Positions 37,031 to 50,272 of a DNA stretch of 53,268 bases are shown here, piece after piece. Position numbers and translations under genes: made by a program. Position 1 is the stretch's first letter. Every line of letters starts with the position of its first letter. The stretch lies in sequence record OR327751.1. One strand, written 5' to 3'. The notes under the pieces were generated by a model, which saw only the letters and a list, made by a program, of their open reading frames with translations, searched no databases and was not told the DNA's origin. Source of the stretch: Escherichia phage Ecp_YSF.

Positions 37031-37052
37031 GATATTAGTTGGTTGTGAATTG
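37031..37052 (+). promoter_or_regulatory. Conserved phage motif copy a (candidate phage-RNAP promoter)
   Basis: GATATTAGTTGGTTGTGAATTG; matches consensus CTGAAACATTAGTTGGATGTGAA; about 65 nt upstream of RNAP start. Confidence 0.4.
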
Positions 37053-37115
37053 TGTAATGGCTACGCTATTATAATCCGTTTCAGTTAAATCATACACAAT
37101 CTTGGAGACTTACAA

Positions 37116-39056
37116 ATGATTACTATCACCACTCAAACTATCAAATCTGTTGTTCCTGCTATCACTGCTCTGGTATACCGTGCCAAAGAGAAGCAGAACT
37201 ATATGCAGCCTCAGACTTGTGCTATTGCTGCCCTAGCCATATTCAAGATGATGACGTCTTTCACTCGTGATGACGTTGTTCCTGCCATTGCGATGGTTGA
37301 GCTGGCTTCTGCTTCTATTGCTGATGCCAACCGCTACAACAACGATTTGAAAGCAATGCACTATGTTGACCCAGCTATCAACCTCATTGGTTTGGCTAAG
37401 CACTTTGGCTTCATCACCATGAACGAAGACAAGTCATTCCAGCAAACTGACACATGGGTTGAACTGGTTACAACCAAAGACACAGCAGTGCCATTCACTG
37501 AGCGTGTTACATCTGAATCTCGTCGCAAGCCTTTCGTTAAAGGTGGCAAAGTTAAGCCATCCAAAACTCTGAAAGCTGCAATCGAATTCCTGCAAGATAC
37601 TGAGTACCATGTGGAGACTGAGATGGTTCGCATCATCCAGTCCATGCTTGAGCAACGTACTTATGGTGGCTTGCAGATGCCAGAAGCAATCCAAACTGAA
37701 CTCCATGTTTGGAACAATGCTGTAGCAATGATGAATCAGGATAAGCTGTATTCTGACTACTTTGCTGATAACCGTGGTCGTCTGTATCATGTAGCATGTG
37801 CTGGTCCTAACCCACAATCCTCTGACTTTGCTCGTTGCTTGTATTCTCACAATGTTGAGAACATCGTTAAGAAGTTTAACGAAGATGGTTCTACTACCAT
37901 TGCATACAACATGTTCATGGCAGAGCTGGAAGATATTTCCGGTGGTGAATGGTGCAGTGCTAAGCGTTTAACTTATGTTGCTCAGAATCCAGCTGGTTCA
38001 CTTGCTCGCATGATGAACATGCCTAAAGCTGAGCGTCCTTCTAAGCCATTCACTTATGTTCGTCTGGCTCTGGATTGGTTCAAGTTTGAGACTACAGGTG
38101 AATGCGATTCTCGTGTAGGCTTTGGCTTAGATGCTAAATGTTCTGGTACTCAATATCTGGCATTCATTGCTGGTAACATGGAAATGGCTCGTGCAACAGG
38201 TCTGGTTGATTCTGAGACTAAAGCATCTGACCCATACCAGTTGAGTCTTCGTGAACTGTTGAAGCTGCTGGACAAGTCTTCAATGAAACCATCTCCTGAA
38301 ATTATGGATGAATTCTTGAATCCGAAAGCTGGTCGTAAGTTTATCAAAACTCCATACATGGCTATCCAATATGGTGGTGGTAAAGCTGCACTAACTGGTT
38401 CTTCTGACTTTATCTCCTACATGACAGAAGCTCTCCAGATTCCTATGGAGAAAGCTGAGGCATTTGCTGAACTGTGTGTAGAAGCAATCCATAACGCATT
38501 GGGTGCTAAGATTAACATGTTCATTGAGAAAGCTGCTGATGCTGCATACAACCGTTGTGTTGAACTTGGTAAAGAGTACATCACATACCGTCACACTGAT
38601 GGTCAGGTTGTAATGAAGCCTTGCTTCCCATCTCGTGAAATCTGTGAGGCATTCAGCATTCGTGTTGACTCCCAAACTCGTGTTATCTTTGGTCAGATTC
38701 AGGAGAATAAGCCTTGGACCATTCGTGAATCCAATCCAACTAAAGAAGAATTCAAGCGTACTTTCGTTGTTAACTACATTCAAGGTATTGACGCACTGGT
38801 TGCTCGTACTGTTGCAGTTAAAGCTAAAGAAGCTGGTCTTCGTGGCTTTACTTCAATTCACGATTGTTTCCGTTGCTGCTTAGCTGATGCTCCACGTATG
38901 ATGGAAGTTATTCGTGCAGCATATGTTGAAATCTTCGTAACCAACAATCAATTCGAGAATCTGTCTAAGCAACTCGGTGGCATTCAGATGTATCATGAGA
39001 ACATCGTAACCGAAGAGCTTCTGATGAGCGAACACGCTTACTACTTCTGTCAATAA
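37116..39056 (+). CDS. Single-subunit DNA-dependent RNA polymerase (T7-like catalytic core, compact 646 aa)
   Basis: Motif A-like LDAKCSGTQYLAF; motif B-like RKFIKTPYMAIQYGGGKA; motif C-like FTSIHDCFRC; RBS GGAGAC before ATG. Confidence 0.75.
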   Translation: MITITTQTIKSVVPAITALVYRAKEKQNYMQPQTCAIAALAIFKMMTSFTRDDVVPAIAMVELASASIADANRYNNDLKAMHYVDPAINLIGLAKHFGFITMNEDKSFQQTDTWVELVTTKDTAVPFTERVTSESRRKPFVKGGKVKPSKTLKAAIEFLQDTEYHVETEMVRIIQSMLEQRTYGGLQMPEAIQTELHVWNNAVAMMNQDKLYSDYFADNRGRLYHVACAGPNPQSSDFARCLYSHNVENIVKKFNEDGSTTIAYNMFMAELEDISGGEWCSAKRLTYVAQNPAGSLARMMNMPKAERPSKPFTYVRLALDWFKFETTGECDSRVGFGLDAKCSGTQYLAFIAGNMEMARATGLVDSETKASDPYQLSLRELLKLLDKSSMKPSPEIMDEFLNPKAGRKFIKTPYMAIQYGGGKAALTGSSDFISYMTEALQIPMEKAEAFAELCVEAIHNALGAKINMFIEKAADAAYNRCVELGKEYITYRHTDGQVVMKPCFPSREICEAFSIRVDSQTRVIFGQIQENKPWTIRESNPTKEEFKRTFVVNYIQGIDALVARTVAVKAKEAGLRGFTSIHDCFRCCLADAPRMMEVIRAAYVEIFVTNNQFENLSKQLGGIQMYHENIVTEELLMSEHAYYFCQ

Positions 39057-39073
39057 CATTAATTGGGTCAAGG

Positions 39074-39298
39074 ATGACCACAAACTTGGAGACTACAATG
39101 AATACCATGCAAATCAATCAAATCGAAAACTGTTTCAATCCTCATCACACCTGTGACATGAGTGATTTATCTCGTCCTACGGTGGAGGAGACTAAAGACT
39201 TCTTAGAATTGTTATCAGAATATAAGCAAGAGTCGCATGTATTATTGCACGCATTCTTGCATAATTCTGGATTCTTTGATACAGAAATACCGTTCTGA
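39074..39298 (+). CDS. Hypothetical small acidic protein (74 aa)
   Basis: ATG-initiated ORF after RNAP; in-frame ATG at 39098 with GGAG upstream is an alternative. Confidence 0.4.
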   Translation: MTTNLETTMNTMQINQIENCFNPHHTCDMSDLSRPTVEETKDFLELLSEYKQESHVLLHAFLHNSGFFDTEIPF

Positions 39299-39303
39299 TA
39301 CTT

Positions 39304-39328
39304 GGGAGCTTCGGCTCCCTATTTTTGT
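39304..39328 (+). terminator. Rho-independent terminator
   Basis: GGGAGC-ttcg-GCTCCC followed by TATTTTTGTTCT. Confidence 0.75.
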
Positions 39329-39367
39329 TCTAATTAATCTTAGAGCTGGCTTCAATATTGTAGCCAG

Positions 39368-39392
39368 TTGTAACATTAGTTGGATGTGAAGT
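39368..39392 (+). promoter_or_regulatory. Conserved phage motif copy b
   Basis: TGTAACATTAGTTGGATGTGAAGTA. Confidence 0.4.
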
Positions 39393-39599
39393 AACAGAAT
39401 ACGGAGAAGTATTCCGCATGTCATGTTGAAATCATTCTAGAAACATTTCAGCATGTCAACTAAACATACAGCGTTGTAATGATGTGGCAATCATTGAACT
39501 CCCTGTCTTTGGCCGGACAAAGTTCCAGCAACCATGTGTGAAGTAGGAATATCATTCGAAACTGTTCTTCAAATAAACATGACTTATCCCTAAAGAAGC

Positions 39600-40320
39600 T
39601 GGGACAGCTCATGTAGTACCAGCATGTTCAATTGTGACAATATTGCTCCATCTCCTATTATAAAGGCCCACCCACAAGCCGGGAGATAACTTTGGTAATA
39701 TTGGAACTTTTGGACATGCTTCTTTCTTTCAATCAGAATTCGAAAGAAGAGAAGAGTCGGAGCAAAGCCGCGAAACTAATCCCGTAGCCCGCCCCGATTT
39801 TGAGCAACAAATATTGTGACAATTTTGTCGCAGTATGGCATGTAAATATTGCTACAAATTGGCATGTTGGAATGTGGCAGAATTGTTAGAGGACTAATCC
39901 CCTCGAAGATACAATCGTCTACCAATCTGGCATGTTATTTTTGTAACAGTATTTGTGCCAATTTCGCATGTATTAGCTGTATCAGTATTAACCCAATATT
40001 CTTGCAACCCGCATGAATACTGGCTTCCAGCCAAGCGAAGGCTTTATCATCGCATGTAAATATTGTGACAATATTGGGATAAAACCCTTTATTTAATTAG
40101 TTTTATTATGCTGTACATGGTCGGTTTTCCGTACCTGCTTGCTCCAATCTTAATGTGCCAAATACGTTAAGTATGGGAGTAAACCTGTAATTAATGGTGC
40201 ATGTTTAATTGTGACAAAATTCGTCTATTTGGCAGATGAATTAGTTGCAATTAAGCATGTTCATTTATCATTAGTTGCATGTGAATAAGACCAAATCTCT
40301 GTAAATTCTGCCGAAATTGT
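39600..40320. repeat. Cluster of operator-like palindromes (AATATTGTGACAATATT family), each preceded by GCATGT
   Basis: Copies near 39616, 39810, 39836, 39925, 40050 (perfect 17-bp palindrome at about 40063-40079), 40197; related AATATTGCTACAATATT at about 36567. Confidence 0.7.
40265..40290 (+). promoter_or_regulatory. Conserved phage motif copy c
   Basis: TTATCATTAGTTGCATGTGAATAAGA. Confidence 0.4.
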
Positions 40321-40484
40321 GTGACAGATTTTAGAGAGATTATGTCTCCAAGCTAATCATTGCAGTTTTTCGACACTTTGTGTGTCACATATAGCCTGTG
40401 AAAAACGTGTGGTATATTGCTGGATTGCGACGCGCCCACCAGACTAGGAAGTCACTGACGGCGGCACACACAGGAATACTATAT

Positions 40485-40555
40485 AACTCCCTACAACTTT
40501 AAGGTGGATTGAGGTAAGACAAGACCTCCACAATCGTTCTGTAGGGAGTTCTTTT
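40485..40555 (+). promoter_or_regulatory. Long-range stem enclosing an inner hairpin, then U-tract, 8 nt before the RBS of the first small gene
   Basis: AACTCCCTACA (40485-40495) pairs with TGTAGGGAGTT (40540-40550); inner GTGGA/GAGG...CCTC/CAC; followed by CTTTT and AGGAG-ATG. Confidence 0.45.
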
Positions 40556-40571
40556 AACTCAGGAGAATAAA

Positions 40572-40790
40572 ATGACTCGTTTTAAAGATTTGGTAGATGG
40601 TGCAATCTTCTTTACGCGTGGTGGGGAACATCTGCAAAAGGTTTTGGAAGATGACATTAATGTAAATGCTGTATTCGTTGGTGATTCTAACATTGGTGTT
40701 TTATTAAATGACAATGAAAGGACTTTTACCGAGGAGGAGTTTAAAGAAATCTCAGCCTCTGATTTAGTTCAAGAGCCAATTGAAGTTTAA
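40572..40790 (+). CDS. Small acidic protein (72 aa), first gene after control region
   Basis: Strong RBS AGGAG; about 16 Asp/Glu versus about 7 basic residues. Confidence 0.55.
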   Translation: MTRFKDLVDGAIFFTRGGEHLQKVLEDDINVNAVFVGDSNIGVLLNDNERTFTEEEFKEISASDLVQEPIEV

Positions 40791-40833
40791 TGCGTGGGAG
40801 GGGGAGTAAACCCTCCAAATTTGGAGAGCAGAA

Positions 40834-41064
40834 ATGAATTATGCACTGTATTGTTATTTAAACAAGCAAGGCTTTGTTAAGCACGCCCTAGTTAACATTA
40901 AAACTAAGGAAGTATTATTGGCCGACCAATCAATTGTTGATTTCAGATTGGTATGGAAGAAAGCAATGCATCCTGGACATGTTTGGGAAACAATTCAGTT
41001 GGATAAGCACCACAAAATTGTGGCAACTGCTACTCGTCCAGACCATATTCTACCAAGAGGTTAA
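40834..41064 (+). CDS. Hypothetical protein (76 aa)
   Basis: RBS GGAGAG before ATG. Confidence 0.5.
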   Translation: MNYALYCYLNKQGFVKHALVNIKTKEVLLADQSIVDFRLVWKKAMHPGHVWETIQLDKHHKIVATATRPDHILPRG

Positions 41065-41066
41065 TC

Positions 41067-41255
41067 ATGGACTTCATCGTCTACTTTAAGTTAAATGGTG
41101 TGGAGCAAAGATTGTACTTCAATTCTTTACTTCGTCTGCAACAGTGGGCGGAGAAGTTTGTTGGGTATGACTTTGAATACATCAACGCATGTACACCTGA
41201 CGAACATGAGGAAATCGTGTTCAGTTCATTGAGCCAAATTCTGGAGGCAAAATGA
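41067..41255 (+). CDS. Hypothetical protein (62 aa)
   Basis: RBS GAGG before ATG. Confidence 0.45.
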   Translation: MDFIVYFKLNGVEQRLYFNSLLRLQQWAEKFVGYDFEYINACTPDEHEEIVFSSLSQILEAK

Positions 41256-41500
41256 CGCAGTTTAAATTGAAGGCCGACTTAATAGAGTTGGCCTCTTATG
41301 AAGAAAAGATTGAGTTCATACAAGAGCGTCTTGTTGTCAACTTTAATAATTGGATACACCTTCCAGTAAGTGATGTAGTTAAAGAAGTTAAAAATGATTT
41401 CGGCATCGAAATCACAAAAAGACAATTCAATAAAGATGTTATGACTGACCGAATCATGGACAGTTTGATTAACAACTTTATGTCCTACAAAGGTATGTGA
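41252..41500 (+). CDS. Hypothetical protein (82 aa)
   Basis: RBS GGAGG; ATGA overlap with upstream gene. Confidence 0.5.
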   Translation: MTQFKLKADLIELASYEEKIEFIQERLVVNFNNWIHLPVSDVVKEVKNDFGIEITKRQFNKDVMTDRIMDSLINNFMSYKGM

Positions 41501-41502
41501 TA

Positions 41503-41676
41503 ATGAACGACCAGCAATTCAACACATTCATGCAGCAAATTAATCATCAAGAATTGATGGACACTCTCAAAGGCAAGAAGCCAGTCGAACGTCAATATCG
41601 TAAAATTGATAATTATATGCCAACCATTATTGCATGTGTTGGATTTCTAATTGTTCTCTACTTCCTGGTGAAATAG
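41503..41676 (+). CDS. Small membrane peptide (57 aa, C-terminal TM helix)
   Basis: Not in ORF track (below 60 aa); ends IIACVGFLIVLYFLVK. A further 27-aa hydrophobic ORF follows at 41677-41760. Confidence 0.35.
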   Translation: MNDQQFNTFMQQINHQELMDTLKGKKPVERQYRKIDNYMPTIIACVGFLIVLYFLVK

Positions 41677-41773
41677 ATGGATATTGTAAAGAAACTAGTA
41701 TTCTGTATTATGATGTTCCCACTTGTGCTACTTGTTGTTGGCGCATTCATGTACTTTTAATGCCGGAGTTATT

Positions 41774-42037
41774 ATGGCTACCAGAACAGGCATGATGATT
41801 GTCCCAAGCCGTAATAACTCTTTAAGCGGCTTTACACCATATAAAATCTATGAAGTGATTTCTGGCACTGGTGAAGCAAACCTGTCAGAAGTTGCTTTGA
41901 AGTTGGGCCGTATGGTCCATTCCGAAATCTCCTGTAACGTAGTTGATGATGAAGGTAAAATCCGTTTTGTAACAATGGATTTCTTTCGTGAATTTAACCT
42001 CAAATCTGAGATAGGTGTTTTATATCATGAAATTTAA
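41774..42037 (+). CDS. Hypothetical protein (87 aa)
   Basis: ATG with GGAG upstream; track ORF starts earlier at 41723. Confidence 0.45.
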   Translation: MATRTGMMIVPSRNNSLSGFTPYKIYEVISGTGEANLSEVALKLGRMVHSEISCNVVDDEGKIRFVTMDFFREFNLKSEIGVLYHEI

Positions 42038-42254
42038 ATGTGTTGCTTCAACCAAAGATTATGTTCCAGTTGGCTTCATCGTTGAGGGTGAAGCTATCTC
42101 GCCTTTGGAATTTAAAGTGACTAAATCTGCTGAGAATGTGTCTCCAGCATTTCGTAAAGGTGCTGTAGTGCCTATGAATGGTGCATTCTGGACATGGCAG
42201 CGTGACCATGAAGCAGAATTTGCAGATATTTGTGAACAAGGGTTATTGCAATGA
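42027..42254 (+). CDS. Hypothetical small protein, paralog family member A
   Basis: Starts MKFKCVASTKDY, ends with WTWQRD motif. Confidence 0.45.
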   Translation: MKFKCVASTKDYVPVGFIVEGEAISPLEFKVTKSAENVSPAFRKGAVVPMNGAFWTWQRDHEAEFADICEQGLLQ

Positions 42255-42481
42255 CAAAGTTTAAGTGCGTGAAATCGACCTCTTCATCTGAATACTCTCC
42301 GAAAGTTGGAGATGTGATTGAGGGGAGGATTATGCACGTAGAGCGGAGAGGCAAAATCGAGCCTCGCATACTCCTTTCAAAAGTCAGTGACCGTAAAGAT
42401 GCCAATGGCAATCCATACTTTGGTGAAGGAGAAAATATTCCTTTAGAGGGTGGAATCTGGTCCTGGGAAGAAGTTAAATAA
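42251..42481 (+). CDS. Hypothetical small protein, paralog family member B
   Basis: Starts MTKFKCVKSTSS, ends GGIWSWEEVK; similar to the preceding gene. Confidence 0.45.
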   Translation: MTKFKCVKSTSSSEYSPKVGDVIEGRIMHVERRGKIEPRILLSKVSDRKDANGNPYFGEGENIPLEGGIWSWEEVK

Positions 42482-42544
42482 TTTCCTCAACCATTCTTAT
42501 AATGAGAGTGGTTGCTGAATATTATTAATTAACTTGGAGCATTT

Positions 42545-42835
42545 ATGAAACAACGTACTCGTTTACAGCGTGACCCCGCCACAGGCCGCTTGTTACCAGC
42601 ATATTTGAAAGTTGGTGACTTAGTTTACACTCGTGACTTTGCTTTTGATATTTGCCCAAGCAAAGCATATGAAGTTCTCGCCACCAGCTTGTCTGGTCCT
42701 AAAGTAATATTTGGTGCTCTTGAGCCAATCCAGTTAACTGGAACTCAGTTTGTCATTAAAGATGAATCTGGTTGCAATCGTATCTTCAATCTCGAAGGTG
42801 GATTATCCAAATGGGAGAAGGTGAAGCGTGGGTAA
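42545..42835 (+). CDS. Hypothetical protein (96 aa), possibly related to the paralog family
   Basis: C-terminus GGLSKWEKVKRG resembles GGIWSWEEVK. Confidence 0.45.
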   Translation: MKQRTRLQRDPATGRLLPAYLKVGDLVYTRDFAFDICPSKAYEVLATSLSGPKVIFGALEPIQLTGTQFVIKDESGCNRIFNLEGGLSKWEKVKRG

Positions 42836-43500: not shown

Positions 43501-43521
43501 CTGACATTAGTTGCGTGTGAA
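43501..43521 (+). promoter_or_regulatory. Conserved phage motif copy d
   Basis: CTGACATTAGTTGCGTGTGAA, 22 nt upstream of ATG 43543. Confidence 0.4.
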
Positions 43522-43542
43522 TAACAACTTTTGGAGGTATTT

Positions 43543-44064
43543 ATGTTTTACACTGGTGTGGGAAGTCGTGAAACTCCCGAGCATATTTGCGAACTGCTGA
43601 CTAAAGTAGCTTCCAAACTGGCCAGGCTTGGCTGGGTAGTTCGTACGGGAGGTGCTCAAGGTGCTGACGAAGCATTCCTGGCTGGCTGCAACGGAAGGAC
43701 AGAGAACTTTATACCTTGGAATGGTTTTGGAAGTTATGGTGGCGTAGTACCGGACCTGAATCGAAATTGGGAATACCTGCAAAGTGTTGAAAACGTAAAC
43801 CCGCTAATTCACAAGAAAGAAACCAGAAACCTCGACAAATACAGAGGATTTTGGAAACTGCAGGCACGAAATGTTAGTCAGGTACTTGGGCTTAACTTAG
43901 ACACTCCATCCAAGTTCTGTATCTTGTACGCTCTGACAACATCAACTGGTGTGAGCGGAGGCACCAACACTGCATATCAGGTTGCAGTGCAGTCTGGAAT
44001 ACCTTGTTTTAACCTGTTTGACCCTGCTGTAGTAGCAAGGTTTGAGAAATTTGTATCTGAGTGA
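43543..44064 (+). CDS. Rossmann-like SLOG/DprA-like protein (possible nucleotide-binding or processing)
   Basis: N-terminus MFYTGVGSRETP ... VVRTGGAQGADEAFLAGC. Confidence 0.35.
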   Translation: MFYTGVGSRETPEHICELLTKVASKLARLGWVVRTGGAQGADEAFLAGCNGRTENFIPWNGFGSYGGVVPDLNRNWEYLQSVENVNPLIHKKETRNLDKYRGFWKLQARNVSQVLGLNLDTPSKFCILYALTTSTGVSGGTNTAYQVAVQSGIPCFNLFDPAVVARFEKFVSE

Positions 44065-44100
44065 TTATCAGGGTGCATTTACGAGTGTACCCGAATAATC

Positions 44101-44119
44101 CAATTAGTTGGATATGAGG
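44101..44119 (+). promoter_or_regulatory. Conserved phage motif copy e (variant)
   Basis: CAATTAGTTGGATATGAGG. Confidence 0.35.
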
Positions 44120-44189: not shown

Positions 44190-44564
44190 ATGGCACAATA
44201 TTCAGATGTAAACACTGGCATTATCGGTCCTAACGGCTTCAAGAAAGACCCAAAACATCCTGACATTCGTGGGCGTATTAACGTTGACGGAATCTGGTAT
44301 TGGGTATCTGGCTGGAATAAGCAAGCAAATGGTAATGAATTTACCTCACTTGCATTAACCATCATGACCCAAGAACAGGTTGATGAAATGATGCGTAAGC
44401 GTGAAGAGAAAGCTAAAGCCAAAGCTCAACCTCAAGCTGCCGCTCAACAGCAACAGCAACGCCAGCAACCTTCTGCGCAACAGCAAGCTCCTACTCAACA
44501 ACAGCAGCAGAGCAACTATAACCCGAACGAGCCGAAAGATTTCGACGACGACATTCCGTTCTAA
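44190..44564 (+). CDS. Small protein with Q-rich linker and SSB-type C-terminal tip DFDDDIPF
   Basis: Last 8 residues DFDDDIPF match the conserved SSB acidic tip; preceded by a Q/A-rich low-complexity linker; N-terminal domain only about 60 aa. Confidence 0.55.
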   Translation: MAQYSDVNTGIIGPNGFKKDPKHPDIRGRINVDGIWYWVSGWNKQANGNEFTSLALTIMTQEQVDEMMRKREEKAKAKAQPQAAAQQQQQRQQPSAQQQAPTQQQQQSNYNPNEPKDFDDDIPF

Positions 44565-44685
44565 TGGAGATGCCCTATGAAAATTCTATGTTTTATGGGG
44601 CTACATAATTGGGAAATTTCACACGAAAACGATTATGTAACCATTTGGGTTTGCAAACACTGTGCAGTAATGCGTGAGGAATATC

Positions 44686-45411
44686 ATGGGAGCTAGAATC
44701 TTCGAAATTCCAGTAAATCTGGTTAAGAATGGTGATACACTTTGGTATGGAAATAAAGAGTATCCAATCGTAAATGTAGTACGTCTACGAGACTGCACAA
44801 CACTTAACTACTTATTGGGAAAAGACCAGAGCGGATACTTTAACTTCGAAAACAGTCGAATTGTTAAACTCATCGACAAACAAAATGAATTCAATATTCC
44901 TTACACTGCGGTGTCACCAACAATTGAGTTCCCTAATCAAATAAAACCAGCATTCCTTCCTGTGGAGGAGTTCAAGAAGCAGGAAATATCCGATGAAGAA
45001 GATGTTCTCGGAAAAGATGTGGAAGTTGGTGACGTTATTTGGTACAACGCCAATTGGGCAACTGTTACAAATGTGTACAAACATCCAAACTCGCCATACA
45101 ACAAAGTCAATATTGACTACGATGGTGTAAAAGGTTTGCAAGTACGACTAACGTTAACCGGAACTTACTCAAGAAAGGTAAGAGCAGTAATGGAAACATT
45201 AAATATTCAAAATGCAATCGAAGCACAACGAATTCTTCTGCAAAAGCTGGAGCAAATGCTGGAAGCAATCCTACTTGAGCCAGGAGAAGATGGCAAGATT
45301 GCGGTAGTAAACACATCGTTTCGTGTTGATAAGGCAACAGTTGTTAAAGTAACGCGAGATGAAATGAAAGCTGCCGCAAACAAATCCGCAGAGCTTATCA
45401 AGAAGCTGTAA
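44686..45411 (+). CDS. Hypothetical protein (241 aa)
   Basis: ATG with GAGGA upstream; coiled-coil-like C-terminal third. Confidence 0.5.
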   Translation: MGARIFEIPVNLVKNGDTLWYGNKEYPIVNVVRLRDCTTLNYLLGKDQSGYFNFENSRIVKLIDKQNEFNIPYTAVSPTIEFPNQIKPAFLPVEEFKKQEISDEEDVLGKDVEVGDVIWYNANWATVTNVYKHPNSPYNKVNIDYDGVKGLQVRLTLTGTYSRKVRAVMETLNIQNAIEAQRILLQKLEQMLEAILLEPGEDGKIAVVNTSFRVDKATVVKVTRDEMKAAANKSAELIKKL

Positions 45412-45417
45412 TTAACA

Positions 45418-45455
45418 GAGGCCATTCCACTTCGAGTGGCCTCGATTAATTATTG
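45418..45455 (+). terminator. Terminator-like hairpin
   Basis: GAGGCCA-(12 nt loop)-TGGCCTC followed by GATTAATTATT. Confidence 0.4.
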
Positions 45456-45597
45456 GAGGATTTATGTGGGATATTTATCTTGAAGGTGTTGACGAGCCAA
45501 TTTCAACACTTAATACACAATTTATTGCAGTTGGGTGTGCAATTCTTTATAAAGGTAAGTTACACACTGTATCTAAAATCGTTCAGAGGTTTTAATT

Positions 45598-45957
45598 GTG
45601 AAACTTAAGTACATTATTATTTATACTTTAGCATTAATTGTTTTGGCATTCTTTAGCTTTGAGTCTAAAGCGTCAACAAAGAACTTCAAATGTGGAGCGT
45701 ATACTCTTGTAGTTGATAACATCGGAGACAGCCAACCTCTGATTGCGTCAATAATTCCTGAAGCTGGTGTTTGGATAGAGGTTCCAAGTGATGAACCCAA
45801 TCCTGCAACAGTTTTATTTTACAACATTAAAGATAGCAGGTTTGCTGCACTGTTTATAAATCATGAAGATAAACTTGTGCTACAGATTTTCCGTGATGGG
45901 GATTTCCTCAAAGCAAACTATCCTGTCTTGTCCACCAGCTGTACGGAGAAGAAATGA
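45598..45957 (+). CDS. Secreted / periplasmic protein with N-terminal signal peptide
   Basis: MKLKYIIIYTLALIVLAFFSFESKA signal-like N-terminus; GTG start with GAGG upstream. Confidence 0.45.
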   Translation: MKLKYIIIYTLALIVLAFFSFESKASTKNFKCGAYTLVVDNIGDSQPLIASIIPEAGVWIEVPSDEPNPATVLFYNIKDSRFAALFINHEDKLVLQIFRDGDFLKANYPVLSTSCTEKK

Positions 45958-46187
45958 CTTCAACAGAATTTATTATTGATGGGGTTCAATACCTGCTGGA
46001 ATCCAATTGCGAGTATCGCCATTGGGCAGTAATTCACGACCGAGTTGTAAAATACTTGGAACGTGTAGGGAAGGAAACTGCTAAATCTATGCTGTTTGAG
46101 GCAACAGTTCTTGGAACAACCTCAATCAATAAAGAATTAGTGTCTTTCAAATTAACCATTCACCCTAGTGGGAATAGCTTTCAATGA
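45954..46187 (+). CDS. Hypothetical protein (77 aa)
   Basis: ATGA overlap. Confidence 0.45.
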   Translation: MTSTEFIIDGVQYLLESNCEYRHWAVIHDRVVKYLERVGKETAKSMLFEATVLGTTSINKELVSFKLTIHPSGNSFQ

Positions 46188-46459
46188 TTTCAATAGACCA
46201 AGTTCCAGTTGAACTAAGTAAGGCAAAAGGTAAGCTAGATGATGCCAAATCTGACTTATCTACCTTTGATTTAAATGCTCCGGCCGATAAAGTTAAGGTT
46301 TTCATCGACTGTATTGATGGATGGGTGCTTATTGAGCATGGAGTCCTTCGAGCATTACTTGTTGATGAAGTTGCCAAGGCTCAGGAAGCATTTGACGAGA
46401 TTGATAACCTCAACACACTGTTAAACAACACTTTAAGCGATGCGCTAAAGGATAAGTAA
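46184..46459 (+). CDS. Hypothetical protein (91 aa)
   Basis: ATGA overlap. Confidence 0.45.
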   Translation: MISIDQVPVELSKAKGKLDDAKSDLSTFDLNAPADKVKVFIDCIDGWVLIEHGVLRALLVDEVAKAQEAFDEIDNLNTLLNNTLSDALKDK

Positions 46460-46854
46460 TGAATGTTAAGCTCGGTCAACGTTCTTTGGACCGACTTAAG
46501 GGAGTAAATCCTTCATTAGTTGCAGTTTTCAAACGTGCATGTGAAACGATGCCTTTTGATGTGACTGTTTTGGAAGGTTTACGCTCTTATGAACGTCAAC
46601 AAGAACTATTAAAACAGGGTGCAACCAAAGTTTCAGTTAGCCGACACATGTCAGGCAACGCTTTGGACATTGCGCCGTACCCAATTGACTGGAATGACCT
46701 TGAACGATTCCAAATTGTGGCTGAACACATGTTCAAAGCCGCAGAAGAGCTTGGAGTTGTTATTCGCTGGGGCGGAACATGGGAACGAACCTTCACTAAG
46801 CCAGTGAAATGGGCCAAGTTCCTTGATGCACCGCACTTCGAACTTCCGGCATAA
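46459..46854 (+). CDS. Peptidase M15-like (VanY / L-alanyl-D-glutamate peptidase-like) zinc peptidase
   Basis: Motifs SRHMSGNALDIAP (H-x6-D) and DAPHFEL. Confidence 0.6.
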   Translation: MNVKLGQRSLDRLKGVNPSLVAVFKRACETMPFDVTVLEGLRSYERQQELLKQGATKVSVSRHMSGNALDIAPYPIDWNDLERFQIVAEHMFKAAEELGVVIRWGGTWERTFTKPVKWAKFLDAPHFELPA

Positions 46855-46862
46855 CTTCATCA

Positions 46863-47153
46863 ATGGAGCATCCGATGGAATATCAGGAAATACCGAAAGA
46901 GTTAGAGCGTATGCAATCTCGCACATATCGTGCAGGGGCAGAACTCCACCAGCATTTGTCAAACTATGTGAACGATTCTCGAAATCTCAGGTCCGAAATT
47001 GCGGTTGATGGTTGTTGCTATCTGGTAACATACGACGAGAAGACCGCCATACTAGACATGCTAGTAAAGGGTGGAAAAGAGCGAATTGAACAGCTCAAAA
47101 TCCTTAATGCGGAACTTCAAGGCATGTGGGAGAAACTCAATGCAAAACGATAA
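46863..47153 (+). CDS. Hypothetical protein (96 aa)
   Basis: ATG-initiated; coiled-coil-like C-terminus. Confidence 0.45.
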   Translation: MEHPMEYQEIPKELERMQSRTYRAGAELHQHLSNYVNDSRNLRSEIAVDGCCYLVTYDEKTAILDMLVKGGKERIEQLKILNAELQGMWEKLNAKR

Positions 47154-47688
47154 CATTGCTCAAGCAGTAGAACAGCTTAAGTCCTGGCGTAGAGATGAAA
47201 CCTTATTGGTTCGTTTCTACACAGGCGAAACTAATTCTGAATTTGTAGATGCGTGGATTGATGGCCTGTCTTGGCGTCATTATGATTTCGACATGCGGGA
47301 GTATTTGCATGAAGAATATGGCATCGAGTATCCAGAATCCGGTACATACGACGTAATTGAATCGAATGAGGAAGATGTTACCGAAGTTTGCTTTGTTGAC
47401 GGGCTGTTCAGCATTCGTAAATATGACAAGTTCAACGAACTGCTTGTTGATACTGACTTGGACGTAATTCTTGCGGCATTCCGTAGCGGTGATATCGACA
47501 TTTTCACTGTAGACGATTTGAATGACAAGGTTATTTGCCGATGTGATTCAATTGCGGATTATTTCCAGCAATATGATGGCATAGAAGTTCCAGACCATCT
47601 TCGTCCATATATCGATTGGGATGCAGTTGCGAGAGATTACGGAAGTGATTACACTTTCTCCGAAGGGATACTATTCTCAAATGCGTGA
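47140..47688 (+). CDS. Acidic protein, ArdA-like anti-restriction candidate
   Basis: Highly acidic; segments VDAWIDGL and YIDWDAVARDYGSDYTF resemble ArdA blocks as recalled from memory; start taken at ATG 47140. Confidence 0.4.
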   Translation: MQNDNIAQAVEQLKSWRRDETLLVRFYTGETNSEFVDAWIDGLSWRHYDFDMREYLHEEYGIEYPESGTYDVIESNEEDVTEVCFVDGLFSIRKYDKFNELLVDTDLDVILAAFRSGDIDIFTVDDLNDKVICRCDSIADYFQQYDGIEVPDHLRPYIDWDAVARDYGSDYTFSEGILFSNA

Positions 47689-47920
47689 TTTAAATATCGC
47701 TGAACTTGAGGCTGGATTGATTGTCCACCACCAGCCTCGAAACACTTTCTATCGTATTCTTGGGCCTACAAAGATTAAAACTCATTGCGGAAGTTGGGTA
47801 GATGGGTTTGCTTACCAAGAAGTTAAGAAGTACGGGGACCATACTTTCTTAAGTATTGATTCTTCTACTATCTACACACGACCGAAAGAGTTATTTGACT
47901 CAGATTGGAAAACGCTATAG
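47681..47920 (+). CDS. Hypothetical protein (79 aa)
   Basis: ATG 47681 overlapping upstream stop. Confidence 0.4.
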   Translation: MRDLNIAELEAGLIVHHQPRNTFYRILGPTKIKTHCGSWVDGFAYQEVKKYGDHTFLSIDSSTIYTRPKELFDSDWKTL

Positions 47921-47984
47921 TTCCAGGCGGGTTTCTTCGAAGTGCCAAGCGGGTTTTGTACTCGCATTGGCCTTCGGCTTTAGT

Positions 47985-48008
47985 CTGAAACATTAGTGGG
48001 ATTTGATT
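47985..48008 (+). promoter_or_regulatory. Conserved phage motif copy f
   Basis: CTGAAACATTAGTGGGATTTGATT. Confidence 0.35.
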
Positions 48009-48124
48009 CTGACCACTTAGGGAAGAAAGGCATTATACACTTATCGCCAAATGGGTGTCAAGCACTTTCTTCATTTATTTAATTTATTCTTATTATTCTT
48101 TTTGTTTGGAATATTGGAATAATC

Positions 48125-48147
48125 CTGAAACATTAGTTGGAATTGGA
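48125..48147 (+). promoter_or_regulatory. Conserved phage motif copy g
   Basis: CTGAAACATTAGTTGGAATTGGA immediately before ATG 48148. Confidence 0.4.
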
Positions 48148-48324
48148 ATGATTAAAGTTCTGGAAAAAGATAACGTAACCTTCGCACGTCAGTGTGGAGG
48201 ATGTTTCTCTGTAGTATCTTACGTGTTCTCTGACTTAAAGATGTACACAGGAAAGAATGACCGAGGATACTTCGCATACAGATTCATTACTTGTCCTGTT
48301 TGCAAGAAGAGTATTCGGCATTAG
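48148..48324 (+). CDS. Small Cys-containing protein (58 aa)
   Basis: Motif copy g abuts the ATG; C-terminal CPVCKK; the track's longer ORF (48055) would contain the motif. Confidence 0.35.
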   Translation: MIKVLEKDNVTFARQCGGCFSVVSYVFSDLKMYTGKNDRGYFAYRFITCPVCKKSIRH

Positions 48325-48337
48325 TTGGAATTGAAAC
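48317..48337 (+). promoter_or_regulatory. Conserved phage motif copy h
   Basis: CGGCATTAGTTGGAATTGAAA; overlaps stop codon of the upstream ORF. Confidence 0.35.
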
Positions 48338-48352
48338 AACATCAGATAAGAG

Positions 48353-48417
48353 CTTTGTAACTAGGTAGTCCGTCTGGTACCAAGACGTGTGAGAACGTTC
48401 GATTCGTTCTACAAAGC
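48353..48417 (+). ncRNA. tRNA-like structured element (acceptor-like stem and canonical T-arm; reduced D region)
   Basis: CTTTGTA pairs with TACAAAG (extendable to 11 bp); hairpin CGTCT-GGTACCA-AGACG; T-arm GAACG-TTCGATT-CGTTC; followed by CTCTTTTCG. Confidence 0.4.
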
Positions 48418-48969
48418 TCTTTTCGATGGAATGTTTCCATCATATACATTTATCTTTTAACATAGGCCAAAGGGCCGGAATACTTATTCGCAGAAAAGCT
48501 ATTCACTTGTTATAGGCGATGTATTGGGATGAATTAGAACTAAATAAGCAAGCTGTTAGGGCTGAATAATTAGAGGGTTGTGCCTCATGCTTATGTTAGT
48601 CATTCGAAAATAGGTTTGTGCCACAAGCTGCTGGTGCTCTGAGGAAGTCGGACAAACAGGGCTTAGAGTGGCATAATCCGCACAAAACCGCGCCACCAGC
48701 TATGCCAAAGCAGGTGGATTGGGTGAATGTATTGGGAAGGGTTGCAAAGCCTCTGCGAGCACGGTATCGCGTATAATAAGTGACGTCTGCGCTGCGTGTA
48801 TCGCACCCTAACGGGAGTAACCCTTCGCCAATGCAGTTATCCAGAATTGACACAAACGGTAGGCAGTGGCCCGATTTTCGGCCTTCCTGTGCTACCCTGT
48901 GGCCTGTTTCATGGGCCAAAAGATGAGAAGAGAAGTCACAAACCCCGAATCGAAAATTGGAGAGTTCCT

Positions 48970-49260
48970 ATGATTCGCAAACATTCTATCCGGGTAATTA
49001 AGGCCCGTAATATTCACACAGGAGAGATGGAAGCATTCGCTTTCTTGGGTGGAAAGTTTTATTTATTTGGTTGGGAAGGAAGTGATTTAAAGTTTGAATT
49101 CTTTATGAATATGTACTCGATTAAAGAGTTGTTAAACAATGCGACCTACGGACCATCCTACATGGAATATTGTTTCGGCAAGCCAGTCGAGCATCTTCTG
49201 TCCAAATCTTTCATTTACAGCTGGACAACAAACCAACCAGTTTACGGAGTTCCATTTTGA
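48970..49260 (+). CDS. Hypothetical protein (96 aa)
   Basis: ATG with GGAGAG upstream. Confidence 0.45.
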   Translation: MIRKHSIRVIKARNIHTGEMEAFAFLGGKFYLFGWEGSDLKFEFFMNMYSIKELLNNATYGPSYMEYCFGKPVEHLLSKSFIYSWTTNQPVYGVPF

Positions 49261-49547
49261 ACTTACAAGACAAATCTAAAGAAGAGTTGATTGAGATTAT
49301 CCAGAAAGAGCACGAACTCGCTGGCATCACAATCAACTATGAACTCCGGGCAATGCAAGCTGTTGCTTTGGGTCATGGTCTAATGGCTACACTCATTCAT
49401 GCCAAGAATGTGTTAGGCATTGACAACGAAAAATACCAAATTCTGGAGAAAGCTGCGCAAGAGCGGATTTCGCAGTGCTTGGTGACATTAGTTGATTTGG
49501 GAATCGACGCAGAAACTGCGAACAAACGTATCCTACAAGGCCACTAA
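49257..49547 (+). CDS. Hypothetical protein
   Basis: TTG start with GGAG upstream, overlapping previous stop; internal ATG is an alternative. Confidence 0.35.
   Translation: MNLQDKSKEELIEIIQKEHELAGITINYELRAMQAVALGHGLMATLIHAKNVLGIDNEKYQILEKAAQERISQCLVTLVDLGIDAETANKRILQGH
49484..49501 (+). promoter_or_regulatory. Conserved phage motif copy j (inside 3' end of upstream gene)
   Basis: GACATTAGTTGATTTGGG, about 48 nt upstream of ATG 49549. Confidence 0.3.
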
Positions 49548-49548
49548 A

Positions 49549-50223
49549 ATGTCTTATCATGATGATGACAAAGAGATTGCACTATCAACGTGTAAGCAAT
49601 GGCTCAATGATAATGATGCCGTCTATCTTGCCAAGGAAGATGTTATCATTATGTGGGTCCATTTTAATCCAGAATCGAAGCGCGGTGAGTGGCAACGCTA
49701 CAAGATGAAAGAGGCTTGTCGCATAATTAAAGCCACACGCGCTGGCTTCTCTGCTATGAAATACATCAAGCCAGAGATGCTGATGCTTGCTGCACAGGAA
49801 GAAGAACGTGCATATAAGCAAGCTGTTAAATCTCGTTCAACTGTTCCTCCAGAGTTCTTTAATTTGGAGCGCGCTGGACACTTCAACAATTTAGAAATGT
49901 TGACACTGTGCCTGTTGCAAGAATTAGTTGGAAGAGGACAAAACATTGAAGCTGTTTGTCTTGGAGAACTTATGAAAGAGTTGTTCTCGGCAAAGGGCTT
50001 TGCTGTGCCAAATCGAACTTTACGCTGGAAATTGTTGCGAGCAGTCGCTCAAGAAGCTGGTGTAGTTGTTCGTGACAGAACAAACCGACTCACTGTAACT
50101 GGAGTTGGGCGTTTTGTAGCAATCCAGATTGAGGGTTATGACGAATCAATCATCACTGAACTCACTGTCGATGAGACAAAGGATTTAGTAAATAAAACAC
50201 TAGAACGATTCAATAGATACTGA
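49549..50223 (+). CDS. Hypothetical protein (224 aa)
   Basis: ATG-initiated; no recognised motif. Confidence 0.5.
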   Translation: MSYHDDDKEIALSTCKQWLNDNDAVYLAKEDVIIMWVHFNPESKRGEWQRYKMKEACRIIKATRAGFSAMKYIKPEMLMLAAQEEERAYKQAVKSRSTVPPEFFNLERAGHFNNLEMLTLCLLQELVGRGQNIEAVCLGELMKELFSAKGFAVPNRTLRWKLLRAVAQEAGVVVRDRTNRLTVTGVGRFVAIQIEGYDESIITELTVDETKDLVNKTLERFNRY

Positions 50224-50247
50224 GTCGTTTGACGAATCAGAGCAGTT

Positions 50248-50272
50248 CTGAAACATTAGTTGGATGTGGAAA
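50248..50272 (+). promoter_or_regulatory. Conserved phage motif copy i
   Basis: CTGAAACATTAGTTGGATGTGGAAA. Confidence 0.4.

What the first reader, a model, noticed from the sequence alone, without database searches (positions are those of the whole stretch)
37031..50272. A roughly 23-bp motif (consensus CTGAAACATTAGTTGGATGTGAA) recurs at least 10 times, always on the + strand and mostly in intergenic positions: candidate phage-RNAP promoters
Copies at about 37031, 39368, 40265, 43501, 44101, 47985, 48125, 48317, 49484 and 50248 share the core CATTAGTTGGATGTGAA with minor variation, all in the orientation of downstream genes. Length and conservation resemble T7-type promoters and not sigma70 promoters. 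All copies lie in the 37-50.3 kb region (the RNAP gene and the small-gene block); none was noticed in the replication or structural modules by eye.
Basis: seen in the sequence. Interest (0 to 1): 0.65.

Follow-up and report, generated by a model that had tools for sequence, protein, structure and literature searches.

The report
Predicted promoters for phage's own RNA polymerase
The repeated 20-23 bp motif is real and is most likely the promoter read by this phage's own T7-type RNA polymerase, but the same motif was already annotated as "putative phage promoter" in the related phage phiEcoM-GJ1, and nobody has tested it experimentally.

Summary
CATTAGTTGGATGTGAA gives 9 matches (up to 3 mismatches), all on the + strand, against 0.29 expected. 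A weight-matrix scan gives 15 + strand and 0 - strand sites.

The window is a phiEcoM-GJ1-like myovirus (Chaseviridae, Carltongylesvirus) with every gene on the + strand. It carries a 646-aa T7-family RNA polymerase gene at 37116-39056.

The motif is the top result of a de novo search of intergenic DNA. It has no RNA structure and no sigma70 layout. It survives as a conserved island at syntenic gene boundaries in four other genera: 78 + strand sites and 0 - strand sites in 399 kb.

It persists where the polymerase is at least 44% identical, including a Hafnia prophage. It is absent where the polymerase is 31-40% identical, and two of those three genomes show other strand-specific motifs.

GenBank NC_010106.1 already annotates nine of these sites as "putative phage promoter 1-9". 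The finding is therefore a rediscovery of a known but untested prediction. The ICTV 2022 profile still says chasevirus promoters are unidentified.

Promoter function is the best explanation, at about 0.8 confidence. Interest is low to moderate.

The parts
37116..39056 (+). Single-subunit (T7-family) RNA polymerase gene, 646 aa. This is the proposed reader of the motif.
   Evidence: Pfam PF00940 E=3.7e-18. A family profile matches T7 RNAP chains at E=1.9e-11, with DxRGR, motif A (LDAKCSGTQY) and motif C (IHDCF) aligned. AlphaFold model pLDDT 91; best PDB folds are T7 RNAP at E=4.5e-19.
37033..37049 (+). Motif copy TATTAGTTGGTTGTGAA, 66 nt upstream of the RNAP start codon and downstream of the sigma70-like promoter. 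Implies possible positive feedback. Not annotated in GJ1, although the copy is present there at 572.
   Evidence: 27.4 bits. Orthologous copies lie upstream of the RNAP gene in GJ1, TH53, 4HA13, PP101, Faunus, L016 and L020.
39374..39390 (+). Perfect consensus copy (equals GJ1 'putative phage promoter 1'). It lies about 55 nt after an intrinsic terminator and is followed by 1181 nt with no convincing ORF.
   Evidence: 33.5 bits. The downstream sequence GTAACAGAATACGGAGAAGTATTCCGCATGTCAT is conserved across genera.
40269..40285 (+). Copy CATTAGTTGCATGTGAA (equals GJ1 promoter 2), 286 nt upstream of the first gene of the small-gene block (ATG at 40572).
   Evidence: 29.3 bits.
43505..43521 (+). 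Copy 21 nt upstream of a DprA-like gene (43543-44064). It forms the left boundary of a 600-bp cassette that GJ1 lacks.
   Evidence: 28.3 bits.
44102..44118 (+). Copy AATTAGTTGGATATGAG (equals GJ1 promoter 3), 71 nt upstream of the SSB gene. It is preceded by a hairpin and forms the right boundary of the DprA-like cassette.
   Evidence: 21.3 bits. The site upstream of the SSB gene is conserved in 8 genomes.
47991..48007 (+). Copy CATTAGTGGGATTTGAT (equals GJ1 promoter 4), lying after the gene that follows the ArdA-like gene.
   Evidence: 26.5 bits.
48131..48147 (+). Copy CATTAGTTGGAATTGGA, directly abutting the ATG of a 58-aa gene (48148-48324). It forms the left boundary of a 185-bp cassette that GJ1 lacks.
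   Evidence: 28.5 bits.
48319..48335 (+). Copy CATTAGTTGGAATTGAA (equals GJ1 promoter 5). Its TAG is the stop codon of the 58-aa gene. It is followed by about 630 nt with no convincing ORF.
   Evidence: 25.7 bits.
49486..49502 (+).
   Evidence: 15.6 bits.
49922..49938 (+). Weak copy AATTAGTTGGAAGAGGA inside the gp28-homologue gene (equals GJ1 promoter 6). It is conserved in four genera, but that may reflect protein coding.
   Evidence: 18.0 bits.
50254..50270 (+). Copy CATTAGTTGGATGTGGA (equals GJ1 promoter 7), 76 nt upstream of the gene at 50347.
   Evidence: 31.0 bits.
5109..5125 (+). Weaker copy CATTATTTGGAAGTGGT (equals GJ1 promoter 8), inside the small ORF 5003-5248 after the DNA polymerase gene and 139 nt before the next gene.
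   Evidence: 20.4 bits.
10217..10233 (+). Weaker copy CATTAGTGGATTGTGAT, 22 nt before the terminase large-subunit ATG (10256). Present in GJ1 at 26984 but not annotated there.
   Evidence: 15.6 bits.
24698..24714 (+). Weak late variant CATTATTTGAATATGTA (equals GJ1 promoter 9), immediately after a terminator-like hairpin and 22 nt before the baseplate-hub ATG.
   Evidence: 13.4 bits. The same hairpin-plus-variant-motif arrangement occurs in GJ1, 4HA13, Y2 and PP101.
24666..24695 (+). GC-rich hairpin followed by a T-rich tail, after the tape-measure-like gene and directly upstream of the 24698 motif copy. Together they form a terminator-promoter pair.
   Evidence: upstream fold -17.1 kcal/mol, z=-3.4.
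36823..36852 (+). Sigma70-like promoter TTGACG-18-TATTAT in the last of four tandem 26-bp units. This is the proposed host-RNAP early promoter for the RNAP gene.
   Evidence: 10/12 match. The homologous site is annotated 'putative host sigma70 promoter' in GJ1. Sequence.
39304..39329 (+). Intrinsic terminator GGGAGCTTCGGCTCCC followed by TATTTTTGTT. It ends the proposed host-transcribed early unit (RNAP plus a 74-aa gene) just before motif copy 39374.

Best explanation
The motif is the promoter recognised by the phage's own T7-family single-subunit RNA polymerase. In the 67 aligned sites its signal spans about 22 bp, starting with a conserved T four bases upstream of the first core base. The core is C-A-T-T-A-G-T-T-G-G-A-W-K-T-G-A-A, and T3, T4, A5, T7, G9 and G15 are invariant.

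Proposed sequence of events:
1. Host RNA polymerase starts at the sigma70-like promoter cluster near 36.8 kb. It transcribes the RNAP gene (37116-39056) and stops at the intrinsic terminator at 39304.
2. The new polymerase binds the double-stranded motif through its 5' block (CATTAGTTG). It melts the 3' block and starts at or just after the invariant T14-G15, probably with a purine.
3. Eight strong copies (25-34 bits) and one intermediate copy at 44102 (21 bits) between 37 and 50.3 kb drive the small-gene, SSB and anti-restriction block. The copy at 37033 also drives the RNAP gene itself, giving positive feedback.
4. All genes share one strand and terminators are few, so these transcripts probably read on into the replication and structural genes. 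Weak copies at 5109, 10217 and 24698 (the last placed after a terminator hairpin) would top up late transcription.

What is shown: the motif statistics, the strand bias, the positions, the cross-genus conservation, the co-occurrence with the RNAP clade, and the RNAP fold and catalytic motifs. What is inferred: that the RNAP binds and initiates at the motif, the position of +1, the read-through model and the temporal order.
For: - Statistics and strand: 9 matches against 0.29 expected, all on +. In the window, 15 + sites and 0 - sites. In 399 kb from 14 Cleopatravirinae genomes or loci, 78 + and 0 -.
- De novo: the motif is the top family in an unbiased search of intergenic DNA, and CATTAGTTG is the most frequent + strand 9-mer in the window, GJ1 and 4HA13.
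- Position: the copies lie upstream of genes at gene boundaries, 0-286 nt from the next start codon, except for two that precede long ORF-free stretches.
- Conservation: at four orthologous sites across genera the majority-base fraction is 0.87-0.92 inside the motif and 0.49-0.68 in the flanks. The late terminator-plus-motif pair is conserved in five genera.
- Co-occurrence with the polymerase: the exact 17-mer occurs 13 times in IMG/VR, and 11 of these are in 9 chasevirus contigs. The motif is kept where the RNAP is 67-100% identical, 53% identical (a Hafnia alvei prophage, 8 + and 0 -) and 44% identical (with a drifted 3' half). It is absent at 40%, 35% and 31% identity. The 35% and 31% genomes carry other + strand-only intergenic motifs.
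The model has a beta-hairpin block at residues 506-537 ahead of motif C, where T7 has its specificity loop.
- T7-like logic of the locus: a host-type promoter, then the RNAP gene, then a terminator, then the first motif copy.
- Independent annotation: nine of the sites are 'putative phage promoter 1-9' in NC_010106.1.
Against: - No experimental 5'-end mapping, rifampicin-resistance data or in vitro transcription exists for any member of the family in the searched literature. The ICTV 2022 profile says chasevirus promoters 'have not yet been identified'.
- The strongest copies sit in the early-region small-gene block, while structural genes have only weak copies. This is the reverse of T7, where class III promoters are strongest. 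Late expression therefore needs read-through or another, undetected signal.
- The base right after the 17-mer is not a conserved purine, so +1 cannot be placed.
- The copy at 48131 abuts an ATG. Initiation there would give a nearly leaderless mRNA.
- The RNAP's N-terminal region is only about 200 aa against about 400 in T7. It is not shown whether the AT-rich recognition loop and the intercalating hairpin have counterparts.
Confidence: 0.8

Rival explanations
1. The motif is a binding site for another phage-encoded or host DNA-binding protein. This could be an activator, a repressor or a sigma-like factor that redirects host RNA polymerase to middle genes. It would not be the RNAP's own promoter.
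For: Strand-specific intergenic sites upstream of genes would also fit an asymmetric factor site. Most early proteins have no known function. The strongest copies lie in the early block, which suits a middle-gene activator.
Against: There are no -35/-10 hexamers at fixed spacing. Sigma70-like matches total 38 against 36.8 expected, and only one of them (37043-37072) uses a motif copy. About 17 contiguous informative positions with no dyad or direct-repeat symmetry is unusual for a transcription-factor site. No sigma or helix-turn-helix domain was found in the ten larger early proteins scanned. The motif's presence or absence follows the RNAP clade, including a prophage with otherwise different gene content.
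Confidence: 0.08
2. The motif acts at the RNA level, for example as a processing site (RNase E or III), a translational signal or an antitermination site on long polycistronic transcripts.
For: It is strand-specific and lies between genes on a single-strand genome. Hairpins often sit just upstream (8 of 13 upstream windows have z at or below -2.3).
Against: The motif has no consistent fold (z from -2.0 to +1.1, mean near 0). Its distance to the next start codon ranges from 0 to 1181 nt. There is no Rfam match. Conservation stops abruptly at position 18, which is what a DNA signal ending at the start site would show.
Confidence: 0.05
3. The motif is primarily a recombination or mobility joint (a cassette boundary or endonuclease target), and its positions upstream of genes are secondary.
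For: Two window-specific insertions relative to GJ1 are bounded exactly by motif copies: 43501-44102 (the DprA-like gene) and 48148-32 (the 58-aa gene). Other relatives carry different inserts between duplicated copies at the second locus. These genomes carry several HNH endonuclease genes.
Against: The cassettes encode no endonuclease or recombinase. Most copies are at stable syntenic positions with no indel. Recombination between dispersed identical promoters is the expected by-product of promoter function. As I recall it, T4-type 'promoter-early stem-loop' cassettes behave this way.
Confidence: 0.05

Closest known systems
'Putative phage promoters 1-9' of Escherichia phage phiEcoM-GJ1 (GenBank NC_010106.1; Jamalludeen et al. 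2008)
   Same: The same 20-mers at homologous positions. Window 39374, 40269, 44102, 47991, 48319, 49922, 50254, 5109 and 24698 correspond to P1 through P9. Same family, same RNAP (92% identity), same interpretation.
   Different: The window has extra copies that GJ1 lacks, at 43505 and 48131; both bound inserted cassettes. Two further copies are present in GJ1 but not annotated there: 37033 (GJ1 572) and 10217 (GJ1 26984). Neither set has been tested experimentally.
T7-group promoters (T7, T3, SP6, K11; 23 bp, -17 to +6) read by T7-family single-subunit RNAPs
   Same: About 22-23 bp, contiguous, asymmetric and double-stranded. Many copies, all co-oriented with the genes, in a genome that encodes a T7-fold RNAP placed behind host promoters and followed by a terminator. 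Terminator-promoter pairs occur. An invariant G lies near the 3' end.
   Different: The sequence is unrelated apart from an ATTAG block that resembles K11/SP6 positions -16 to -12 (from memory, not tested). The strongest copies are in the early-region block, not upstream of structural genes. The polymerase is 646 aa with a shortened N-terminal region. The host virus is a myovirus with 2.3-3.1 kb terminal repeats that contain the RNAP gene.
Promoter-early stem-loop (PeSL) cassettes of T4-type phages (Arbiol et al. 2010; recalled, not checked here)
   Same: Hairpin-plus-promoter modules flank small accessory genes. They coincide with the boundaries of insertions and deletions between relatives.
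   Different: PeSLs carry host sigma70 early promoters. Here the repeated unit would be a phage-RNAP promoter.
N4 virion-RNAP hairpin promoters
   Same: Relevant only to the sister subfamily. Aeromonas phage pAh6.2TG has 8 + strand copies of a 5-bp-stem, 3-4-nt-loop hairpin (GGCTC-TTC-GAGCC) followed by ACAAG, with compensatory stem changes, clustered after its RNAP gene.
   Different: The window's motif has no hairpin potential. Its RNAP's best structural matches are T7 and mitochondrial RNAPs, and N4 RNAP does not appear in the top 50.

Membership tests
Promoter of a T7-family single-subunit phage RNAP | The same genome encodes a T7-family single-subunit RNAP with intact catalytic motifs | tested here: met
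   PF00940 E=3.7e-18. Motif A Asp and motif C His-Asp align to T7 D537 and H811/D812. Model pLDDT 91, and T7 RNAP is the best PDB fold at E=4.5e-19.
Promoter of a T7-family single-subunit phage RNAP | A contiguous, asymmetric conserved sequence of about 20-23 bp present in multiple copies | tested here: met
   The logo of 67 non-redundant sites spans -4 to +18 (one search's numbering). Six positions are invariant and there is no dyad symmetry.
Promoter of a T7-family single-subunit phage RNAP | All copies are co-oriented with transcription and lie upstream of genes | tested here: met
   15 + and 0 - in the window. 78 + and 0 - in relatives. Positions.
Promoter of a T7-family single-subunit phage RNAP | The motif co-varies or co-occurs with the polymerase across relatives | tested here: met
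   Kept at RNAP identity of 44% or more, with progressive drift of the 3' half. Absent at 31-40% identity; the 31% and 35% genomes carry different + strand motifs. 11 of 13 exact IMG/VR hits lie in chasevirus contigs.
Promoter of a T7-family single-subunit phage RNAP | A defined start site with a conserved initiating purine at a fixed distance from the binding block | tested here: inconclusive
   T14-G15 is nearly or fully invariant and the downstream sequence is A-rich. The base after the 17-mer varies (G, T or A), and no 5'-end data exist.
Promoter of a T7-family single-subunit phage RNAP | Specific initiation by the cognate polymerase (run-off transcription, primer extension, rifampicin-resistant transcripts) | not testable with these tools
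   No such data were found for any chasevirus.
Promoter of a T7-family single-subunit phage RNAP | Sequence similarity to the T7/T3/SP6/K11 consensus | not tested
   Compared from memory only. Only an ATTAG block resembles K11/SP6. Sequence similarity is not required for membership, because specificities differ between polymerases.
Bacterial sigma70 promoter | -35 and -10 hexamers separated by 16-18 bp | tested here: not met
   Only 1 motif copy (37043-37072, 9/12) overlaps a sigma70-like match. The region total is 38 against 36.8 expected.
Structured RNA element or known RNA family | A conserved secondary structure or an Rfam match | tested here: not met
   No Rfam hit at gathering thresholds. 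Motif folds have z from -2.0 to +1.1.

The most novel reading that the evidence does not exclude
The motif is the promoter of a compact (646-aa) T7-family polymerase, and its specificity is unlike that of any characterised single-subunit RNAP. That would make a new orthogonal polymerase-promoter pair. The promoter copies would also do two further jobs. First, they would act as recombination joints that swap small gene cassettes between phages. Second, the copy at 39374 would fire into a conserved, ORF-free array of GCATGT and AATATTGTGACAATATT repeats that straddles the right edge of the long terminal repeat. This would couple phage-RNAP transcription to replication initiation or concatemer processing, as promoters phi1.1A/B and the concatemer-junction pause site do in T7.
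Probability: 0.2. Interest if true: 0.55.

Novelty: already known. Interest (0 to 1): 0.3.

Why it matters
If confirmed, this would fill the gap stated in the ICTV profile, that chasevirus promoters are unidentified. It would explain how a myovirus with a podovirus-type polymerase organises its transcription. It would also provide a small polymerase-promoter pair that might be usable as an orthogonal expression system. For the genome scan itself the result is ordinary: a correct rediscovery of a prediction deposited in GenBank in 2008. This analysis adds the family-wide conservation, the missed late copies and the link to the RNAP clade.

Tried and rejected
- Sigma70 reading: rejected. Match counts equal the shuffle expectation, and only one motif copy has a -10-like partner.
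- RNA element: rejected. There is no fold signal and no Rfam or tRNA hit.
- A second, late-specific promoter motif: the de novo search found only the RNAP motif, AT-rich runs and a palindrome family. The apparently ORF-free stretch before the major capsid gene (15.3-15.6 kb) is coding; it is an Ig-like extension.
- Plain k-mer counting in Vibrio phage VPs20 gave only coding k-mers. Restricting the search to intergenic DNA was needed.
- Homing-endonuclease explanation for the motif-bounded cassettes: rejected. The cassette genes are a DprA-like protein and a 58-aa protein of unknown function.
- Papers: the phiEcoM-GJ1 genome paper (PMC2223254) and the Erwinia Y2 paper (PMC3165370) are not held, so the prior-art claim rests on the GenBank feature table. 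The ST32, PYps23T, PP101, 'Tiny' and T7-like promoter-decoding papers contain nothing on chasevirus promoters.
- A text search for the motif string found only unrelated papers.
- Host-genome and genome-contig scans were not run, because a 17-mer is expected dozens of times by chance in 596 Gb.

Full report
**What the window is**

The 14 kb around the finding is 89-94% identical to Escherichia phages PO103-1, ST32, EcoM1 and phiEcoM-GJ1, and to Yersinia phage PYps23T. These are myoviruses of the family Chaseviridae, genus Carltongylesvirus. All long ORFs are on the + strand.

The first and last 141 nt of the window are identical. The contig is therefore a circular assembly of a genome of about 53,127 bp. 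Position ~36.5 kb corresponds to position 1 of phiEcoM-GJ1.

ORF 37116-39056 (646 aa) is a single-subunit RNA polymerase:
- It matches Pfam RNA_pol at E=3.7e-18.
- It aligns to T7 RNAP over the DxRGR segment, motif A (LDAKCSGTQY against T7 FDGSCSGIQH) and motif C (IHDCF against IHDSF).
- A 47-sequence alignment gives an AlphaFold model with pLDDT 91 and pTM 0.85.
- The best PDB matches of that model are T7 RNAP (E=4.5e-19, TM 0.58-0.60), followed by mitochondrial RNAPs.
- T7 residues ~401-883 align to residues ~198-646 here, so the N-terminal region is about half the size of T7's.
- A block of beta-strands at 506-537 precedes the helix leading to motif C. T7 has its specificity loop in that place. 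This equivalence is an inference from topology.

**Checking the observation**

CATTAGTTGGATGTGAA matches nine times with up to three mismatches, all on the + strand, against 0.29 expected.

The tenth listed copy (49486) is degenerate. It keeps the invariant 5' half and scores 15.6 bits.

A 20-column matrix gives 15 + strand and no - strand sites above 10 bits. An unbiased search of intergenic DNA for 16-mers with up to four mismatches returns this motif first. CATTAGTTG is also the commonest + strand 9-mer in the window.

Weaker copies lie at:
- 5109, in a small ORF after the DNA polymerase gene;
- 10217, 22 nt before the terminase ATG;
- 24698, between the tape-measure-like and baseplate-hub genes;
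- 49922, inside a gene.

**Anatomy**

From 67 non-redundant sites in 14 genomes or loci, the signal runs from a T four bases upstream of the first core base to position 18, numbering as. That T was outside the selecting matrix and still carries 1.0 bit. T3, T4, A5, T7, G9 and G15 are invariant. Position 18 is never C, and the next ~8 positions are A-rich.

The consensus contains TAG (positions 4-6) and TGA (14-16), so only one reading frame can pass through it. At 48319 the TAG serves as the stop codon of the upstream gene.

The motif has no fold of its own (z from -2.0 to +1.1). Eight of 13 copies have a significant hairpin in the 48 nt upstream.

The locus follows T7-like logic:
- A sigma70-like promoter (TTGACG-18-TATTAT, 36823-36852) lies within tandem 26-bp units. 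Its GJ1 homologue is annotated as the host promoter.
- It precedes the RNAP gene.
- A clean intrinsic terminator (39304-39319 plus a T-run) follows the RNAP gene and one small gene.
- The perfect consensus copy at 39374 comes ~55 nt later.

Sigma70-like matches in general are at the shuffle expectation (38 against 36.8). Only one of them uses a motif copy.

**Comparative evidence**

The motif occurs, + strand only, at syntenic gene boundaries in these genomes:

| Genome | Genus or type | RNAP identity |
|---|---|---|
| 4HA13 | Sabourvirus | 76% |
| Erwinia phage Y2 | Loessnervirus | 71% |
| Pectobacterium phage PP101 | Suwonvirus | 71% |
| Faunus | - | 77% |
| Myduc-like Proteus phage | - | 67% |

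Uncultivated relatives carry it as well. In total there are 78 + and 0 - sites above 18 bits in 399 kb.

At four orthologous sites (upstream of the RNAP gene, after it, upstream of the SSB gene, and upstream of the gp29 homologue), the majority-base fraction is 0.87-0.92 in the motif and 0.49-0.68 in the flanks.

The weak late copy is also syntenic. In five genera a GC-rich hairpin with a T-rich tail is followed directly by AACATTAGTTGAAnnTGTA, just before the baseplate-hub gene.

The exact 17-mer occurs 13 times in IMG/VR, and 11 of these are in nine chasevirus contigs.

Going further out by RNAP identity:

| Genome | RNAP identity | Result |
|---|---|---|
| Prophage in the Hafnia alvei chromosome (with integrase) | 53% | Same motif, 8 + and 0 - |
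| Contig L037 | 44% | Keeps ATTAGTTG, with a changed 3' half (..ATGGA) |
| Contig L038 | 40% | Lacks the motif |
| Vibrio phage VPs20 (Nefertitivirinae) | 35% | Lacks it; has GGGCTCG-N4-CTCGCCCACTAGAA, 7 + and 0 - |
| Aeromonas phage pAh6.2TG (Nefertitivirinae) | 31% | Lacks it; has the hairpin GGCTC-TTC-GAGCC-ACAAG, 8 + and 0 -, with compensatory stem changes |

The motif therefore follows the polymerase clade and not the host or the gene content.

**Interpretation**

The best explanation is that these are promoters of the phage RNAP (confidence ~0.8).

The proposed order of events is as follows. Host RNAP makes the phage polymerase. The phage polymerase then initiates at the motif copies. 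Eight strong copies and one intermediate copy (44102) drive the 39-50 kb block and, through 37033, its own gene. Co-directional read-through plus the weak copies serve the replication and structural genes.

What is not shown is binding, initiation, the +1 position and timing. The unusual point is that the best copies are in the early-region block and the late genes have only weak ones, which is the reverse of T7.

Three rivals remain. They are a site for another factor acting with host RNAP (0.08), an RNA-level signal (0.05) and a recombination joint (0.05). Each conflicts with at least one result above, but only experiments can exclude them.

**Prior knowledge**

GenBank NC_010106.1 (phiEcoM-GJ1) annotates nine 20-mers as 'putative phage promoter 1-9'. 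They are the same motif at the homologous positions of nine window copies.

The genome paper itself is not in the held library. No paper found reports transcript mapping or polymerase biochemistry for the family. The ICTV 2022 profile says the promoters 'have not yet been identified'.

Hence the novelty rating is 'already known' as a prediction that remains experimentally open.

**Additional observations**

1. Two insertions relative to GJ1 are bounded exactly by motif copies. One is 43501-44102, carrying a DprA-like gene. The other is 48148-48332, carrying a 58-aa gene. Other relatives carry different inserts between duplicated copies at the second locus. Hairpin-plus-promoter modules therefore behave as cassette joints. 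As I recall, T4-type PeSLs behave the same way.

2. The 1.2-kb ORF-free stretch after 39374 holds 11 + strand copies of GCATGT within 860 nt. About 0.2 would be expected from 6-mer frequency (my estimate, not a tool result). It also holds five copies of the near-palindrome AATATTGTGACAATATT. A second cluster of that palindrome lies at 36572-36850. The array is conserved in GJ1, 4HA13, Y2, PP101 and relatives with 44-55% RNAP identity. By homology with 4HA13 (terminal repeat 1-3120) and PYps23T (2.3-kb repeat), the two clusters sit near the two edges of the terminal repeat. It could be an origin of replication, a terminal-repeat or packaging signal, or a set of operator sites. This was not resolved.

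3. An invariant CCCAAAG heptamer lies 6 nt before the stop of gene 14848-15321. It opens a -1 frame encoding a ~100-aa Ig-like extension.

4. Relatives with integrase genes, one of them integrated in a Hafnia alvei chromosome, show that temperate relatives exist for this family, which is described as lytic.

Noticed in passing
window 39416-40282 (and 36572-36860): The 1.2-kb ORF-free stretch between motif copies 39374 and 40269 holds 11 + strand GCATGT hexamers. It also holds five copies of the near-palindrome AATATTGTGACAATATT, often as GCATGT-AAATATTGTGACAATATT. A second cluster of the palindrome lies upstream of the RNAP gene. The array is conserved in GJ1, 4HA13, Y2, PP101 and in relatives with 44-55% RNAP identity. 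By homology, the two clusters flank the long direct terminal repeat. Candidate roles are a replication origin, a terminal-repeat or packaging signal, or operator sites.
   Followed up: partly
window 36756-36860: Four tandem 26-bp units (..TAATGAGACTnnAATTGTnnCnATAT..) lie in an AT-rich stretch. The last unit forms the sigma70-like promoter TTGACG-18-TATTAT(AAT) upstream of the RNAP gene. They may be stacked early host promoters, like A1-A3 of T7.
   Followed up: partly
window 43501-44102 and 48148-48332: Two insertions relative to phiEcoM-GJ1 are each bounded exactly by copies of the promoter motif. One carries a DprA-like gene (phrog_768). The other carries a 58-aa gene (phrog_2834). Other relatives carry different inserts at the second spot. 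The promoter copies look like recombination joints for gene cassettes.
   Followed up: yes
window 15303-15617 (slippery site 15309-15315): A CCCAAAG heptamer, invariant in five genera, lies 6 nt before the stop of gene 14848-15321. The -1 frame stays open for ~100 codons and encodes a Thr/Val/Ala-rich Ig-like segment (annotated as a separate 'Ig domain containing protein' in Erwinia phage Y2). This is probably a programmed -1 frameshift that adds an Ig-like domain to a virion protein.
   Followed up: partly
window 1-141 and 53128-53268: The first and last 141 nt are identical (141/141). The contig is a circular assembly with an overlap, and the unique length is about 53,127 bp. The physical genome probably has a 2.3-3.1 kb direct terminal repeat that collapsed in assembly.
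   Followed up: yes
L006 (Vibrio phage VPs20) 2316-20995; L021 (Aeromonas phage pAh6.2TG) 17985-24980: The sister subfamily Nefertitivirinae lacks the window's motif and has its own + strand-only intergenic motifs clustered after the RNAP gene. VPs20 has GGGCTCG-N4-CTCGCCCACTAGAA (7 copies). pAh6.2TG has a 5-bp-stem hairpin GGCTC-TTC-GAGCC followed by ACAAG (8 copies, with compensatory stem changes). These may be hairpin-type promoters or processing sites.
   Followed up: partly
L036 (Hafnia alvei chromosome NJFP02000002.1, 2778075-2800021); L035; L037: RNAP homologues of 44-55% identity sit next to integrase genes. One is integrated in a bacterial chromosome beside holin and hydrolase genes and carries the same promoter-like motif. 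Temperate relatives of this 'strictly lytic' family therefore appear to exist.
   Followed up: partly
window 39391-39425: The sequence just downstream of motif copy 39374 (GTAACAGAATACGGAGAAGTATTCCGCATGTCAT, containing a GAATAC/GTATTC stem-loop) is conserved across several genera. If 39374 is a promoter, this would be a conserved 5' leader of a non-coding transcript.
   Followed up: no
window 15590-15636: A conserved stem-loop (GGCGCAATTAATGGTTGCGCC) lies directly before the major capsid gene start, with GTTGCGCC invariant in five genera. It may be a processing or stabilising hairpin for the capsid mRNA.
   Followed up: no
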